Sequence record: NC_054930.1
Length of the DNA: 64,000 nucleotides
DNA from: Escherichia phage PP01
Strand: one strand, 5' to 3'
Each line of letters opens with the position of its first letter. The first letter of the stretch is position 1. The notes below the pieces were generated by a model. That model had not been told where the DNA came from and made no database searches. It saw nothing but the letters and a program-made list of their open reading frames with translations. This document shows, in pieces, positions 4,328 to 61,621 of this stretch. The position numbers were made by a program, and so were the translations under genes.

Positions 4328-4345
4328 AAAGGCCCGAAGGCCTTT
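4328..4345. terminator. palindromic GC hairpin (AAAGGCC-CGAA-GGCCTTT)
   Basis: Perfect stem with CGAA loop between the lipoprotein gene and gene 39; the T-run is better on the plus strand. Confidence 0.4.
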
Positions 4346-4617
4346 TATTTAAAACGGATAGTCGAATCCTTGAAGAATAGACCAGAACATACTGTTCCTT
4401 CTACTTTCTGCCCGGTAGGTCCAATAGCACGAAATCCAGTATGCTGGAAATCATTTTCAGAGCAACCGAACCAGTTGTATCCAGTGATTTCAATATTAGT
4501 AAAACCGCTTGAAGACAAAATTTTGGTTGCATTATCAGCATCAGTACATCCTACTAAAGATACTGCTAATACTAATGCTGCGATAGAACGATTAACATAT
4601 TTCATAATTTCACTCAA
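4345..4617 (-). CDS. putative lipoprotein
   Basis: 90 aa; N-terminal signal peptide with lipobox LVGC. Confidence 0.5.
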   Translation of the reverse strand: MSEIMKYVNRSIAALVLAVSLVGCTDADNATKILSSSGFTNIEITGYNWFGCSENDFQHTGFRAIGPTGQKVEGTVCSGLFFKDSTIRFK

Positions 4618-18399: not shown

Positions 18400-18693
18400 T
18401 TACTCACCTACCACTTCAGCGATGATATTTTTATTATTGAAGTTTTTATCACAATACAGAACGTAATTATACTGCATTACACCACCAGACTTAAGTTGTT
18501 TTTGCACTTCAGCTTTCATTTCAGGACGATCACGCTCAACGATATTCATAATATCCGCTTCAATTTGAGTTTCAACTTCAGTCTGATCTGCAGTCATAGA
18601 CCACTCACACAAATCTTTGTCATAACCCGCCATAGCAGGCTGAGCAGCGCAAGAAGATAAAGCAAAAATTGCAGCAAAGATAAATTTTTTCAT
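18400..18693 (-). CDS. sp: Spackle periplasmic protein
   Basis: 97 aa with cleavable signal peptide MKKFIFAAIFALSSCAAQPAMA; size/position as T4 Sp. Confidence 0.65.
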   Translation of the reverse strand: MKKFIFAAIFALSSCAAQPAMAGYDKDLCEWSMTADQTEVETQIEADIMNIVERDRPEMKAEVQKQLKSGGVMQYNYVLYCDKNFNNKNIIAEVVGE

Positions 18694-24874: not shown

Positions 24875-25255
24875 TCACTTAGTCAAATTTTTTACGCATG
24901 AATTATAAGAATTCACTACATACTCCATCGGAGCATTTTTACCTGTACGCCATTGGTAATTATTAGCCCAATTAGCCCAAAGCTCAGCGCAGTAGTTTTC
25001 AATTTTTTCTTCGCGTGTAATTACATCTGAATTACGATATGCTTGAGCAGATTCATCTGGGCGAATAGCTTCGTCAAAATTCGCCTGCATCTGTTCTACT
25101 GTCTGTTTTGGAGCTTCTTTATAACACTTGACGTTAGGATTATAAAATTTGCTTGAACAGTTTACAATTTTTCCTACATCAGACTGATTTACTACCGGTC
25201 CTTGAGCTACACATCCAGTAAGACCCAATACAATAACCAAAATAGCGATTTTCAT
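24875..25255 (-). CDS. putative lipoprotein
   Basis: 126 aa; signal peptide with lipobox LTGC. Confidence 0.55.
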   Translation of the reverse strand: MKIAILVIVLGLTGCVAQGPVVNQSDVGKIVNCSSKFYNPNVKCYKEAPKQTVEQMQANFDEAIRPDESAQAYRNSDVITREEKIENYCAELWANWANNYQWRTGKNAPMEYVVNSYNSCVKNLTK

Positions 25256-57465: not shown

Positions 57466-57852
57466 TTATTCGAGGGAAAGAAGATACTTACTCTGGTAAA
57501 ACATCCCAGTAATATCATCTATCGTGCTTTGAATGGCTGGAGGCATTTCTTTATAAATGCTATTAGATTGGTCTAGTATGCGATCAATCATTTTAATTGT
57601 GTCGGTAGGAAGTTTACTGGCATCTGGAATTAAAGGTGTGTATTTTCTACCAGAATACCCCAAATATTGCTCACCAAATTTATCAATCAAATCTGGCAAC
57701 TCGGAGAAAATAAAATCGTATGCTTTGTGTCTAGCATAACTTTTAGTTTCAAAATGCGCAGAATGAAAATAAGCTTGTGCAGCCATTAATAAACCTAAGT
57801 ATTCATCTGCCTTTGAAGGTTTTCCACTTTGTGAAAAGTCGCTGAATTTCAT
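57466..57852 (-). CDS. hypothetical protein (rI.-1 position)
   Basis: 128-aa ORF followed by strong terminator. Confidence 0.5.
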
Positions 57853-58142
57853 TCAGTCTCCAATTTAATGTTCATAATTCTAGCGTATGATTGTGCCATC
57901 TCCGCGCCTCGTTCTATACATTCAAAATCAGAAGAGCACGGGTCATTTTTATAGGTCGTTCTCATAAAACTATAGAACTGTTCAGATGATTCTACGCTTT
58001 TATTTTCAAAAAGCATATAAACATGTCTAATACCAGATTCCATAAATTTATCAAAATGAGGATCGACATTCGCTTCAATCGATGGAGATAAAACAAATGA
58101 CAATCCTAGCATGGCAAATAGTGCCGTTGCTTTTAAGGCCAT
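57849..58142 (-). CDS. rI: lysis inhibition regulator RI (periplasmic, signal-anchor)
   Basis: 97 aa; N-terminus MALKATALFAMLGLSFVLSPSIEA matches T4 RI as recalled. Confidence 0.75.
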   Translation of the reverse strand: MALKATALFAMLGLSFVLSPSIEANVDPHFDKFMESGIRHVYMLFENKSVESSEQFYSFMRTTYKNDPCSSDFECIERGAEMAQSYARIMNIKLETE

Positions 58143-59580: not shown

Positions 59581-59768
59581 TATTCTTCTACGTGCTGTTT
59601 ACGACCTTTCTTATCAATAAAGGTATATTCAACGAATGTTCCAATATAGTCTTTATCTACATCATGAGGACTATTAATTGGGCATTTAGTACGGCAAATG
59701 CGTTCCCATTGACGAATAATTTCCACTTTGTTTTTAGGATCAAACGGATGCGGGTAATGTACTTTCAT
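59556..59768 (-). CDS. small hypothetical protein
   Basis: 70-aa ORF. Confidence 0.4.
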   Translation of the reverse strand: MKVHYPHPFDPKNKVEIIRQWERICRTKCPINSPHDVDKDYIGTFVEYTFIDKKGRKQHVEEYCLKVTWL

Positions 59769-60219
59769 AATCCACCACTATTAAATCAATATCAGGAGTA
59801 AACATGTCGATTAATTTAGAAACCTTATCCCAATCACCGCCAGCAATACCACAACCTATGCGTGGAATGTAAATTACTGGTTTAAACAAAAGGGTCTCTG
59901 CCTGTAGATTTAATTCTATCATGCAGTTTACTAAAGCACCATAATCAAGATTAGGACCCGGTTCGTATTGCGTATACAGGTTATAGCACATACTAAATCC
60001 TGTAGGATTATGTTTAAAAACAATAGACATATCGCCTAATTTATCACGAGAACCGTACTCGGTAGTAGTTTTATCTATTTCTAAAATTTTGGGATAGGCT
60101 CTTGCTAATTGACCCGCTACACCAGAGCCCATTGTGTGGAAGCAGTTGCATCCGTGCGCAATAATATTACCTTGAAGAAATAGGGCGACAATATCGCCCT
60201 TGATATATTTTACAATCAT
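59740..60219 (-). CDS. macro-domain-like protein (putative ADP-ribose binding/hydrolase)
   Basis: 159 aa; GDI...IAHGCNCFHTMGSGVAGQLA resembles the macro-domain nucleotide-binding core. Confidence 0.45.
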   Translation of the reverse strand: MIVKYIKGDIVALFLQGNIIAHGCNCFHTMGSGVAGQLARAYPKILEIDKTTTEYGSRDKLGDMSIVFKHNPTGFSMCYNLYTQYEPGPNLDYGALVNCMIELNLQAETLLFKPVIYIPRIGCGIAGGDWDKVSKLIDMFTPDIDLIVVDYESTLPASV

Positions 60220-60557
60220 CTAGTACTCAATCCTCGATTATAAGAATCTACCAAACGGTCAACCATTGAATGACAAGCGGCTTTATCTTTCTCCTCCGCA
60301 ACTGAACATTCTAAGGTATTCCACTTTTTAGCATATCGTTTTAACAATGTATCATTTTTATATCTGCTTGATTTATCTCTTTCTCCGTCTTTATATGCAT
60401 ATATTAATTTCTGCGCAAATTCAGCTTGGCATGCTTTATTTTTCCCACAATAATCCGCGGCAGTACGGTTTACATACTCTCTAATTTCAGTATATGATGT
60501 ATCTGCTAACGCAGAAAATGAAATTAATCCTATACATAAAACCAAAATTTTAGTCAT
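60216..60557 (-). CDS. secreted small protein
   Basis: 113 aa; cleavable signal peptide MTKILVLCIGLISFSALA; four Cys. Confidence 0.5.
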   Translation of the reverse strand: MTKILVLCIGLISFSALADTSYTEIREYVNRTAADYCGKNKACQAEFAQKLIYAYKDGERDKSSRYKNDTLLKRYAKKWNTLECSVAEEKDKAACHSMVDRLVDSYNRGLSTR

Positions 60558-61095
60558 TTACTATTTCCAAAAGTTTATTATTTTTAAGGTAATTAGCCTT
60601 TTCTAGGACTTCAGAAGCATATTTAGAACCTGCTTTAACATTCCATCCCGAATTATAAGAGGATATCGCCTTTCTTATATCGCCCTTATGTATATTTAAC
60701 CAATAAGAAAGTTCAATGTACGCCCAGGAAGCTGAATTGGACCGTTTATTCAACATTCTTTTTATTTCAGCATCGGTCATATTATAACCAAGTTCCTTAA
60801 CTCTTGCTCGCATAGTCGGCAAATAATTTTGGAACATTCCATAGGCATGATGCTTTGGTTTAGATTTTAAATTAACTCCGGCAGAGCTTTCTTGCCATAA
60901 AATAGCAGCCATTATATGACCTAATCCGCTCTTATGGATATTTTTGTGTGTTTTATATTTTCCATCCTTAGAAAATTGTTCCCCGAATTGATACGCGTAA
61001 CGCATGTTATCGAGTTGGACATTACTGAAAGTATGCTCGGAGCTATGTGCCATCATAGAAATGGCCAATAGACCAGCGAGTAGTGCTTTTCTCAT
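60550..61095 (-). CDS. secreted lytic transglycosylase-like protein (SLT domain)
   Basis: 181 aa; signal peptide; catalytic E-S motif LWQESS...YGMFQ. Confidence 0.5.
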   Translation of the reverse strand: MRKALLAGLLAISMMAHSSEHTFSNVQLDNMRYAYQFGEQFSKDGKYKTHKNIHKSGLGHIMAAILWQESSAGVNLKSKPKHHAYGMFQNYLPTMRARVKELGYNMTDAEIKRMLNKRSNSASWAYIELSYWLNIHKGDIRKAISSYNSGWNVKAGSKYASEVLEKANYLKNNKLLEIVND

Positions 61096-61102
61096 GCTTA
61101 CC

Positions 61103-61564
61103 TCATTGAGTTTTAATTACTGCTTTAGAAGCCTTTCCTGGTAAACGACGACTGTTAATAATTGCCATCCTGCATTGAAGCGACGGGTCTTTGAACTTCG
61201 CATTAGGTTTACAAACTGTAAATCCAAGCCAAAGATTTCCATCTGTGATTTCTAAACGCCCAGGACGATATTCAACCCCATCAATAAAATCCTCGTCAAT
61301 GTCAGGACGCGGAGGCATACTCAGGAATTCATTAACTTCTAAAACATGGTCTTTTATTTTATGGAATAATTCAAAAACATATGTCTCATCAATCTCCCGT
61401 TGAATTGCACGATCAAGAAGATGTTGAGAATATTTTAGATGAAACGATGAGACCCCTGCTGCTTTTGATGCCTCACGAATCTCATTGTTAATTTGACGAA
61501 ACTCCGACTCAAAGTGACGACGGAGCTTATTTCGACGGATAAAAACTTCTATGTTGATAGTCAT
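61103..61564 (-). CDS. regB: RegB endoribonuclease
   Basis: 153 aa as in T4 RegB; basic; early promoter at 61592-61621. Confidence 0.65.
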   Translation of the reverse strand: MTINIEVFIRRNKLRRHFESEFRQINNEIREASKAAGVSSFHLKYSQHLLDRAIQREIDETYVFELFHKIKDHVLEVNEFLSMPPRPDIDEDFIDGVEYRPGRLEITDGNLWLGFTVCKPNAKFKDPSLQCRMAIINSRRLPGKASKAVIKTQ

Positions 61565-61591: not shown

Positions 61592-61621
61592 ATTATACCA
61601 CAGTCAAGAGGAAAAGTAAAC
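61592..61621 (-). promoter_or_regulatory. early promoter upstream of regB
   Basis: GTTTAC, 18 bp, TATAAT with TGG. Confidence 0.6.

What the first reader, a model, noticed from the sequence alone, without database searches (positions are those of the whole stretch)
60216..61095. Secreted pair: small Cys-containing protein plus SLT-like transglycosylase
Two overlapping genes both begin with cleavable signal peptides. The second carries the lytic-transglycosylase E-S...G-x-Q motif (LWQESS...YGMFQ). Early-expressed periplasmic cell-wall enzymes are unusual and may act in envelope remodelling, superinfection exclusion or lysis timing, alongside the periplasmic Sp, Imm and RI proteins in the same window.
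Basis: seen in the sequence. Interest (0 to 1): 0.5.

Follow-up and report, generated by a model that had tools for sequence, protein, structure and literature searches.

The report
T4 vs.1 and vs: exported pair
These are the known phage T4 genes vs.1, an uncharacterised cell-wall-cutting enzyme sent to the periplasm, and vs, which is annotated as a modifier of a cytoplasmic tRNA synthetase yet looks by sequence like a secreted, disulfide-bonded protein.

Summary
On the minus strand, 60550-61095 (181 aa) and 60216-60557 (113 aa) overlap by 8 nt, and both begin with Sec-type signal peptides. The window is a Tequatrovirus, and the genes are T4 vs.1 and vs, lying between regB and tk.4.

**Vs.1.** It passes the Pfam SLT threshold, as do 44 of 50 homologues at E<=0.01. 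Its AlphaFold model (pLDDT 91) matches only GH23 structures: g-type lysozyme, GH23 chitinase, MltD, Slt70 and the phi6 lysin. Glu69 and the GMFQ and SYNxG motifs are invariant or nearly so. The signal peptide is present in 48 of 49 homologues and in one representative each checked from Ackermannviridae, Felixounavirus and Pseudotevenvirus. The SLT similarity was already published in 2003 and 2006, so this part is known. The enzyme has never been assayed.

**Vs.** Every orthologue I aligned, down to 27% identity, keeps a signal peptide. Four of its only 12 invariant residues are cysteines. This conflicts with a cytoplasmic target and I could not resolve it.

I found no evidence that the two proteins act as a functional pair; Vs.1 often occurs without Vs.

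Verdict: known genes and a known enzyme kind, with moderate interest that comes only from the Vs localisation paradox.

The parts
60550..61095 (-). vs.1 CDS, 181 aa: precursor of an exported single-domain GH23/SLT-type muramidase
   Evidence: ORF. 99-100% identical to Vs.1 of Tequatroviruses. Pfam SLT 23.4 bits against a cut-off of 21.3. AlphaFold2 pLDDT 91 with GH23-only Foldseek hits.
61042..61095 (-). Vs.1 signal peptide, aa 1-18 (MRKALLAGLLAISMMAHS), predicted cleavage AHS|SE
   Evidence: The n-h-c architecture is present in 48 of 49 homologues and in Cba120, KhF3 and RB43 homologues.
60889..60891 (-). Codon of Glu69, the predicted catalytic acid, within WQESS at 60883-60897
   Evidence: Invariant in 50 sequences. 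Aligns with catalytic Glu73 of g-type lysozyme in a weak, non-significant profile alignment (E=1.6). Coordinates.
60814..60840 (-). GMFQNYLPT, aa 86-94 (SLT motif II region)
   Evidence: G, Q, N, Y and P are invariant and F and T nearly so. Coordinates.
60646..60660 (-). SYNSG, aa 146-150 (SLT motif III, [AS]-Y-N-x-G)
   Evidence: Y, N and G are invariant. Coordinates.
60216..60557 (-). vs CDS, 113 aa, annotated valyl-tRNA synthetase modifier. Predicted precursor of an 11.0 kDa four-helix protein.
   Evidence: ORF. PHROG 1256 E=5e-40. 97% identical to the 115-aa T4-type Vs. AlphaFold2 four helices at pLDDT 74. No fold match.
60504..60557 (-). Vs signal peptide, aa 1-18 (MTKILVLCIGLISFSALA), predicted cleavage ALA|DT
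   Evidence: Conserved architecture with indels across 11 orthologues down to 27% identity.
60273..60449 (-). Span holding the four invariant Cys codons of Vs: C37 (60447-60449), C43 (60429-60431), C84 (60306-60308), C95 (60273-60275)
   Evidence: These are 4 of only 12 invariant columns in A6. The spacing between partners varies (C-x5/6-C and C-x8/10-C). Coordinates.
61592..61620 (-). Sigma-70-like promoter (TTTACT-17-TATAAT, TG-extended) upstream of regB. Probable early promoter for regB-vs.1-vs-tk.4.
   Evidence: consensus match only. T4 vs and vs.1 are scored as early RNA, middle protein.
61103..61564 (-). regB (context, upstream gene of the same transcription unit)
   Evidence: Pfam REGB_T4 E=2.8e-68.
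59740..60219 (-). tk.4 macro-domain gene (context, downstream, ATGA overlap with vs)
   Evidence: Pfam Macro E=3.7e-8. Named AdfM, an anti-DarTG2 factor, in the HIDEN-SEQ preprint.

Best explanation
The two genes are the T4 early-region genes vs.1 and vs. They appear to be co-transcribed leftward from an early promoter upstream of regB and are translationally coupled.

**Vs.1.** Strongly inferred: Vs.1 is made with a cleavable Sec signal peptide and released as a soluble 163-aa, 18.8 kDa basic periplasmic enzyme of the GH23 (SLT / goose-lysozyme) superfamily. Glu69 is the general acid that cleaves the MurNAc-GlcNAc bond of host peptidoglycan. Inferred: the reaction is most likely non-hydrolytic, that of a lytic transglycosylase giving 1,6-anhydroMurNAc ends. 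Its biological role is the weakest step. My preferred reading is a non-essential, Sec-delivered accessory muralytic enzyme that nicks or loosens the sacculus before holin-dependent lysis. That would be analogous to the secreted, early-transcribed Tgl of Staphylococcus kayviruses.

**Vs.** By sequence, Vs is also exported and cleaved to a 95-aa, 11.0 kDa four-helix protein. Its two helix hairpins are probably stapled by disulfides C37-C43 and C84-C95. This conflicts with its accepted role as a binder of cytoplasmic valyl-tRNA synthetase. I treat that conflict as unresolved rather than overturning the annotation.
For: **Identity and synteny**
- The region is 98.6% identical in DNA to Tequatroviruses, with regB-vs.1-vs-tk.4 annotated.
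- The same four-gene order holds in 27 of 27 IMG/VR loci.

**Vs.1 enzyme class**
- Pfam SLT is above the gathering score, and 44 of 50 family members hit SLT at E<=0.01, best 1.3e-7.
- The AlphaFold2 model has pLDDT 91 and pTM 0.87.
- The top 40 Foldseek PDB hits, those with probability above about 0.3, are nearly all GH23 proteins, with GH19 chitinases and fungal muramidases as weaker lysozyme-like hits. The 22 best (probability 0.96-1.0, TM 0.45-0.60) are all GH23: Ralstonia chitinase, g-type lysozymes, MltD and Slt. Slt70 and the phi6 lysin follow at probability 0.3-0.9.
- E69, G86, Q89, Y147, N148, G150 and Y159 are invariant across 50 sequences down to 44% identity.
- E69 aligns with Glu73 of g-type lysozyme, and the lysozyme Asp97 position is an invariant Tyr.

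**Export**
- Signal-peptide architecture is conserved in 48 of 49 Vs.1 homologues and in one representative each of three other phage groups.
- It is conserved in all Vs orthologues.
- The signal regions evolve faster than the mature parts.
- The four Cys are among the 12 invariant residues of Vs.
- By my reading of the ORF translation, no in-frame Met follows the signal peptide before M98. Near-cognate start codons were read by eye from the sequence, not searched with a tool.
- N-His-tagged full-length Vs is insoluble in the cytoplasm.

**Expression and precedents**
- Both T4 proteins are detected, scored as early RNA and middle protein.
- A phage-encoded secreted LT-like enzyme that is transcribed early already exists: Kayvirus Tgl.
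Against: - No enzymatic assay of Vs.1 exists in the literature I could search.
- PDB sequence-level similarity is not significant, with best E=0.54.
- Foldseek E-values are only about 1e-2, though probabilities are about 1.0.
- An active muramidase secreted early could be harmful. Periplasmic overexpression of E. coli LTs causes transient lysis.
- vs.1 did not appear among the conditionally essential genes discussed in the HIDEN-SEQ text, so any role is dispensable in the laboratory.
- For Vs, classical genetics and biochemistry (recalled from memory: Neidhardt, Marchin, McClain, 1966-1980) tie the vs gene to modification of cytoplasmic ValRS in vivo.
- The minimal-medium defect of a clean vs deletion fits an aminoacylation role at least as well as an envelope role.
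- SignalP was not run, and the Vs model has only pLDDT 74 from a 6-sequence alignment.
Confidence: 0.6

Rival explanations
1. Vs is exactly what it is annotated as: a cytoplasmic 10-13 kDa factor that binds host valyl-tRNA synthetase. Its hydrophobic N-terminus would then not work as an export signal during infection, or would do so only partly. The adjacency to vs.1 would be ordinary T4 gene packing.
For: - Every annotated record names it the valyl-tRNA synthetase modifier.
- A clean vs deletion impairs plaques specifically in M9 glucose, where amino-acid supply limits growth.
- The classical literature (memory) reports phage growth on valS(ts) hosts that depends on vs.
- The whole regB-vs.1-vs-tk.4 block is syntenic, so adjacency alone says nothing special.
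Against: - A canonical n-h-c signal with an AxA-type site is retained in all orthologues down to 27% identity, although its sequence and length drift.
- Four invariant Cys with variable loop spacing suit disulfides, not a cytoplasmic metal site.
- Reading the sequence by eye, the positive-inside rule places the mature domain outside the cytoplasm. This was not computed with a tool.
- There is no alternative start codon that would skip the signal: the next in-frame Met is M98 in the ORF translation.
- The cytoplasmic N-tagged protein is insoluble.
Confidence: 0.35
2. Vs and Vs.1 form a periplasmic enzyme-regulator pair. Vs would bind and restrain, or target, the Vs.1 muramidase, as T4 Spackle does for gp5 lysozyme and Ivy/MliC do for host LTs. 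The minimal-medium defect of a vs deletion would then be caused by unrestrained Vs.1.
For: - Both are predicted to be periplasmic.
- vs always lies directly downstream of vs.1, with an overlap or a small gap, in 27 of 27 loci and six genera.
- Periplasmic protein inhibitors of LTs exist.
- The vs deletion has a conditional fitness defect, while vs.1 is not reported as needed.
Against: - Vs.1 occurs without Vs in well over 1000 phage records. In RB43, phiAS4, Cba120 and KhF3 the neighbouring genes checked lack signal peptides.
- The Vs model matches no known inhibitor fold.
- There is no similarity to Sp.
- The synteny is shared with the unrelated genes regB and tk.4.
- No complex prediction could be run.
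Confidence: 0.12
3. Vs.1 is a hydrolytic g-type lysozyme or chitinase-like glycosidase, or a catalytically inert peptidoglycan-binding protein, rather than a lytic transglycosylase.
For: - The best Foldseek hits are a GH23 chitinase and g-type lysozymes, ranked ahead of Slt and MltD by E-value.
- The weak profile hits in the PDB are all g-type lysozymes.
Against: - The position aligned to the g-lysozyme water-activating Asp97 is an invariant Tyr. The Asp86 region is a variable Lys/His loop.
- GMFQNYLPT resembles the GLMQ-x-x-P-x-T motif of family-1 LTs (from memory).
- Pfam assigns SLT.
- Invariance of the catalytic Glu and all the motifs argues against a pseudo-enzyme.
Confidence: 0.2

Closest known systems
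Bacteriophage T4 Vs.1 (UniProt P13311, 'uncharacterized 20.7 kDa protein in vs-regB intergenic region'; PHROG 600)
   Same: This is the orthologue: 99-100% identical protein, same length, same neighbours and the same 8-nt overlap with vs.
   Different: Nothing material. Its function is still annotated as unknown or as 'SLT domain-containing'.
Family-1 lytic transglycosylases of GH23 (E. coli Slt70, P. aeruginosa Slt and MltD; Pfam PF01464)
   Same: The lysozyme-like helical fold, the E-S catalytic motif, the G-x-x-Q and [AS]-Y-N-x-G motifs, and a periplasmic location.
   Different: Vs.1 is a bare 163-aa catalytic domain with no superhelical, LysM or lipid-anchor modules. It is only about 13-19% identical to these enzymes. 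It is phage-specific: one weak hit in 185,579 species genomes. No product chemistry is known.
Goose-type lysozymes and the GH23 chitinase of Ralstonia sp. A-471
   Same: These are the best structural matches (TM 0.5-0.6), they are of similar size, and the catalytic Glu is in the same place.
   Different: The second acidic residue used by these hydrolases is not conserved in Vs.1: the Asp97 position is Tyr.
Tgl of Staphylococcus Kayvirus phages (PMC7150955)
   Same: A phage-encoded enzyme with LT motifs and a signal peptide, exported by the host Sec system, transcribable early by host RNA polymerase, and separate from the main late endolysin.
   Different: The host is Gram-positive and there is no detectable sequence relationship. 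Tgl was shown experimentally to be lytic; Vs.1 has not been tested.
Bacteriophage T4 Vs (UniProt P13310, valyl-tRNA synthetase modifier; PHROG 1256; Pfam PF26829)
   Same: This is the orthologue: 97% identical, differing by a 2-aa indel in the signal-peptide c-region.
   Different: Nothing in sequence. What differs is my reading: the sequence predicts an exported, disulfide-bonded protein, whereas the annotation implies a cytoplasmic one.
T4 Spackle (Sp) and bacterial periplasmic lysozyme/LT inhibitors (Ivy, MliC, PliG, LprI)
   Same: Like Vs, these are small exported proteins. Sp is also helical and is encoded in this window at 18400-18693.
   Different: There is no sequence or fold similarity to any of them, and no evidence that Vs binds a muramidase.

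Membership tests
GH23 / Pfam SLT (PF01464) lytic transglycosylase family | Sequence match to the family model above the curated threshold | tested here: met
   23.4 bits against a gathering score of 21.3, E=4.8e-5. 44 of 50 homologues match at E<=0.01, best 1.3e-7.
GH23 / Pfam SLT (PF01464) lytic transglycosylase family | Lysozyme-like alpha-helical fold superposable on solved GH23 enzymes | tested here: met
   Model pLDDT 91. The best Foldseek PDB hits are all GH23, with probability up to 1.0 and TM 0.45-0.60.
GH23 / Pfam SLT (PF01464) lytic transglycosylase family | Catalytic Glu followed by Ser at the end of a helix, plus the G-[LM]-x-Q and [AS]-Y-N-x-G motifs (motif definitions recalled from Blackburn & Clarke) | tested here: met
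   E69 is invariant and S70 nearly so. G86, Q89, Y147, N148 and G150 are invariant in 50 sequences. E69 aligns with Glu73 of g-type lysozyme.
GH23 / Pfam SLT (PF01464) lytic transglycosylase family | Non-hydrolytic cleavage giving 1,6-anhydroMurNAc products | not testable with these tools
   This needs a muropeptide LC-MS assay. The only indirect hint is the absence of the g-lysozyme Asp97 equivalent.
Sec / signal peptidase I exported proteins | n-region with K/R, an uncharged h-region of 8-15 residues, small residues at -3/-1, and no further TM segment | tested here: met
   Both proteins meet this. It is conserved in 48 of 49 Vs.1 homologues and all Vs homologues. There is no lipobox Cys and no twin-arginine. 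SignalP was not available.
Sec / signal peptidase I exported proteins | Actual export and cleavage in infected cells | not testable with these tools
   This needs fractionation, PhoA fusions or N-terminal mass spectrometry.
T4 Vs, valyl-tRNA synthetase modifier | Orthology to T4 gene vs | tested here: met
   97% identical to the 115-aa T4-type protein. PHROG 1256 E=5e-40. Same position between vs.1 and tk.4.
T4 Vs, valyl-tRNA synthetase modifier | Access to and binding of cytoplasmic ValRS | tested here: inconclusive
   Binding could not be tested. The sequence predicts export, which argues against cytoplasmic residence. The minimal-medium phenotype of the vs deletion is compatible with the annotated role.
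Periplasmic proteinaceous lysozyme/LT inhibitors (Sp, Ivy, MliC/PliC, PliG, LprI) | Sequence or fold similarity to a known inhibitor family | tested here: not met
Periplasmic proteinaceous lysozyme/LT inhibitors (Sp, Ivy, MliC/PliC, PliG, LprI) | Obligate co-occurrence with the target enzyme | tested here: inconclusive
   Vs is always next to Vs.1 (27 of 27 loci). But Vs.1 is found in about 2012 records against 794 for Vs.

The most novel reading that the evidence does not exclude
Vs is not, or not only, a cytoplasmic modifier of valyl-tRNA synthetase. It would be a Sec-exported, DsbA-oxidised periplasmic protein that works with or restrains the neighbouring Vs.1 muramidase. The recently reported minimal-medium defect of T4 lacking vs would then be an envelope phenotype, and a fifty-year-old annotation would need revising.
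Probability: 0.12. Interest if true: 0.7.

Novelty: already known. Interest (0 to 1): 0.35.

Why it matters
Vs.1 is conserved across Straboviridae, Ackermannviridae and Felixounavirus, in about 2000 phage genomes. It is the only predicted muralytic enzyme of T4 that reaches the periplasm on its own and early in infection. Its role is unknown, and knowing it would add a missing piece to how large virulent phages manage the host envelope before lysis.

The more useful point concerns Vs, whose predicted cellular location conflicts with its textbook function. The conflict can be tested directly: re-search existing T4 proteomics for the processed N-terminus, and compare vs, vs.1 and double deletions in minimal medium. 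A fitness phenotype for vs has only just been reported, so these tests are timely.

Tried and rejected
2. **Relative of T4 Spackle.** There is no similarity.
3. **A general 'Vs.1 plus secreted partner' module.** In Cba120, KhF3, RB43 and phiAS4 the neighbouring genes checked have no signal peptide.
4. **Bacterial relatives.**
   - Vs has only 5 representatives at E<=1e-3 among 1.84 billion proteins, all with the same signal-peptide and Cys architecture.
   - Vs.1 has one weak hit in 185,579 species genomes.
5. **Defence and NCBI family libraries.** Nothing was found.
6. **PDB by sequence.** Only non-significant g-lysozyme hits were found.
7. **Literature.**
   - The original Marchin and Neidhardt papers and the Miller 2003 review are not held. 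How the vs ORF was assigned could therefore not be checked, and what I say about them is from memory.
   - The Nolan 2006 signal-peptide table covers only novel ORFs.
8. **Opposite strand.** Only short ORFs of 45 aa or less are present, with no support.
9. **Cys-Cys distances in the Vs model.** These could not be measured because model coordinates are not exposed.
Full report
**What is there**

The window is a Tequatrovirus, a close relative of T4. The 1.9 kb around the finding is 98.6% identical to Citrobacter phage CrRp10 and matches about 500 other T4-like records at 95-99% identity. In CrRp10 the genes are annotated, in order, as endoribonuclease RegB, a hypothetical protein, valyl-tRNA synthetase modifier and 'phosphatase'.

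On the minus strand of the window the layout is as follows:
- regB at 61103-61564
- a 181-aa ORF at 60550-61095
- a 113-aa ORF at 60216-60557
- the macro-domain gene tk.4 at 59740-60219

The two ORFs of the finding overlap by 8 nt, and the second ends in an ATGA overlap with tk.4. They are T4 vs.1 (UniProt P13311) and vs (P13310). T4 proper has the same lengths apart from a 2-aa indel in vs, and the same 8-nt overlap.

**Signal peptides**

Vs.1 begins MRKALLAGLLAISMMAHS|SEH and Vs begins MTKILVLCIGLISFSALA|DTS. Each has a basic n-region, a 13-15 residue uncharged core, small residues at -3 and -1, and no second hydrophobic segment. Neither has a lipobox or a twin-arginine motif.

I applied a crude rule to all 157 ORFs of at least 60 aa in the window. 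It flags 11, among them these two and the ORFs I take to be Sp and RI, identified by eye from their sequences and, for RI, from the CrRp10 annotation.

Conservation is the stronger argument:
- 48 of 49 Vs.1 homologues have the same architecture. The exception appears to be N-terminally truncated.
- So do the distant homologues of Cba120 (Ackermannviridae), KhF3 (Felixounavirus) and RB43 (Pseudotevenvirus).
- So do all Vs orthologues, including the 27-29% identical ones of Salmonella phage S16 and Klebsiella phage vB_KpnM_GF.
- In both families the signal region is much less conserved than the mature part (about 36-37% against 59-61% pairwise identity) and carries indels. This is how functional signal peptides evolve.

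SignalP was not available, so actual cleavage is inferred.

**Vs.1 is a GH23 / SLT-type enzyme**

- The protein passes the Pfam SLT gathering threshold (23.4 against 21.3 bits). 44 of 50 family members hit SLT at E<=0.01.
- An AlphaFold2 model of the mature protein, built from a 50-sequence alignment, has pLDDT 91 and pTM 0.87.
- Its best Foldseek matches in the PDB are all GH23 proteins, with probabilities up to 1.0 and TM-scores of 0.45-0.60. They are the Ralstonia A-471 chitinase, g-type lysozymes, MltD, Slt/Slt70 and the phi6 P5 lysin. GH19 chitinases and fungal muramidases appear further down as weaker lysozyme-like hits.
- Sequence-only comparison with the PDB is not significant, although the weak hits are all g-type lysozymes.
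- In the family alignment these residues are invariant or nearly so: E69 and S70 (WQESS), G86/Q89/N90/Y91/P93 (GMFQNYLPT), Y147/N148/G150 (SYNxG) and Y159.
- In a weak, non-significant profile alignment (E=1.6), E69 falls on catalytic Glu73 of ostrich g-type lysozyme. The position of that enzyme's Asp97 is the invariant Tyr91. This fits a single-acid lytic-transglycosylase mechanism better than a hydrolase, but it is an inference from a weak alignment.

The family is phage-specific, with one marginal hit in 185,579 bacterial and archaeal species genomes. It is widespread among phages, with 2012 phage records.

**This part is not new**

Nolan et al. 2006 (PMC1524935) already reported the SLT match for all six vs.1 orthologues then known. 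They cited earlier PSI-BLAST matches of T4 vs.1 to lysozyme. UniRef already names several homologues 'Transglycosylase SLT domain-containing protein'. I found no paper that assays the protein or assigns it a role.

In T4 itself, both vs.1 and vs are scored as early at RNA level and middle at protein level, so both proteins are made. A TG-extended sigma-70-like promoter lies upstream of regB at 61592-61620.

The small Cys-containing protein is the gene annotated everywhere as the valyl-tRNA synthetase modifier. ValRS is cytoplasmic, yet the sequence points to export:
- It has a conserved signal peptide.
- No alternative in-frame Met follows the signal; the next in the ORF translation is M98.
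- Reading the sequence by eye, the flanking charges place the mature domain outside the cytoplasm.
- Cys37, Cys43, Cys84 and Cys95 are four of only twelve invariant residues across 11 orthologues.
- The spacing within each Cys pair varies between genera (C-x5/6-C and C-x8/10-C). That suits disulfide-closed loops and not a metal site.

The AlphaFold2 model is of modest confidence (pLDDT 74, from a 6-sequence alignment). It shows four helices, with each Cys pair near a hairpin turn. It matches no solved fold beyond generic helical bundles.

The family is tiny: 5 representatives at E<=1e-3 among 1.84 billion proteins. All examples located were on T-even-type phage contigs.

The mature protein would be 95 aa and 11.0 kDa, against 12.9 kDa for the precursor. 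From memory, the purified 'tau' factor was reported at about 10 kDa. A structural-genomics study found N-His-tagged full-length Vs only in inclusion bodies (PMC8076793). That is what one would expect of a tagged secretory precursor, although the evidence is weak.

Two things weigh against export. The classical genetics (from memory; the papers are not held) link vs to ValRS modification in vivo. And the HIDEN-SEQ preprint shows that a clean vs deletion impairs T4 plaques specifically in M9 glucose, which fits an aminoacylation role at least as well as an envelope role. I therefore record this as an unresolved paradox and not as a re-annotation.

**Are they a pair?**

In 27 of 27 IMG/VR loci, and in six genera inspected by hand, vs lies directly downstream of vs.1. 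But regB and tk.4 are just as syntenic, so adjacency proves little.

Vs.1 occurs in about 2.5 times as many phage records as Vs. In phages without Vs, the neighbouring genes checked have no signal peptide. Vs resembles no known lysozyme or LT inhibitor, including Spackle.

A regulator-enzyme relationship is therefore possible. It is attractive given the vs phenotype and the known toxicity of periplasmic LT overexpression. It is nevertheless unsupported, and I give it about 0.12.

**Most likely mechanism**

Vs.1 is exported by Sec from early in infection, is cleaved after Ser18, and acts as a soluble periplasmic muramidase, most likely a lytic transglycosylase, with Glu69 as the catalytic acid.

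I cannot determine its biological purpose. My preferred reading is an accessory, holin-independent muralytic activity that loosens or remodels the sacculus before lysis. The closest functional precedent is the secreted, early-transcribed Tgl of kayviruses.

**Verdict**

Residual interest is moderate. It rests on the Vs localisation paradox and on the fact that a widely conserved periplasmic phage muramidase still has no assigned role.

Noticed in passing
window 59740-60219 (-), compared with L011-L037: tk.4 is a macro-domain gene, named AdfM (an anti-DarTG2 factor) in the HIDEN-SEQ preprint. Its identity to the window copy is decoupled from its neighbours. It is 56-57% identical in loci where Vs is 97-99% identical (L011, L014, L015), but 90-94% identical where Vs is only 42-45% identical (L028-L032). 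This suggests allele swapping of an anti-defence gene between T-even genera.
   Followed up: partly
L009 2363-2755 (Klebsiella phage vB_KpnM_GF); L008 2366-2767 (Salmonella phage S16): In vB_KpnM_GF a third gene with a clear signal peptide (130 aa, MKKAAILLCCAFSVNA|WEK...) sits between vs and tk.4. That gives three consecutive predicted exported proteins. S16 has an annotated gene of similar size in the same position, which I did not translate. The gene is absent from this window.
   Followed up: no
window 60182-60200 (-): A strong GC-rich hairpin (GGGCGAUAUUGUCGCCC) followed by a U-rich tract lies just after the vs stop, inside the first codons of tk.4. It is terminator-like on both strands. 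The whole-segment folding z-score is only -1.8.
   Followed up: partly
window 24875-25255 (-) and 4345-4605 (-): Two ORFs have lipoprotein-type signal sequences: MKIAILVIVLGLTG|C and ...LAVSLVG|C. They were flagged by the same crude signal-peptide rule that picks up Sp (18400-18693) and RI (57849-58142).
   Followed up: no
L008 2058-2369 (Salmonella phage S16 gp67.2): The annotated Vs-like CDS translates from a non-Met codon (IALVLSLLL...), so its start is probably mis-set. The true start, with the n-region of the signal peptide, should lie a few codons upstream.
   Followed up: no
phage records MH688040.1, KP869111.1, PV390659.2, MK373787.1 and protein clusters P0014, P0044: Some vs.1 homologues are labelled 'RegB', 'endoribonuclease' or 'site-specific RNA endonuclease' in phage records and in UniRef names. 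The label appears to have been carried over from the neighbouring gene.
   Followed up: no
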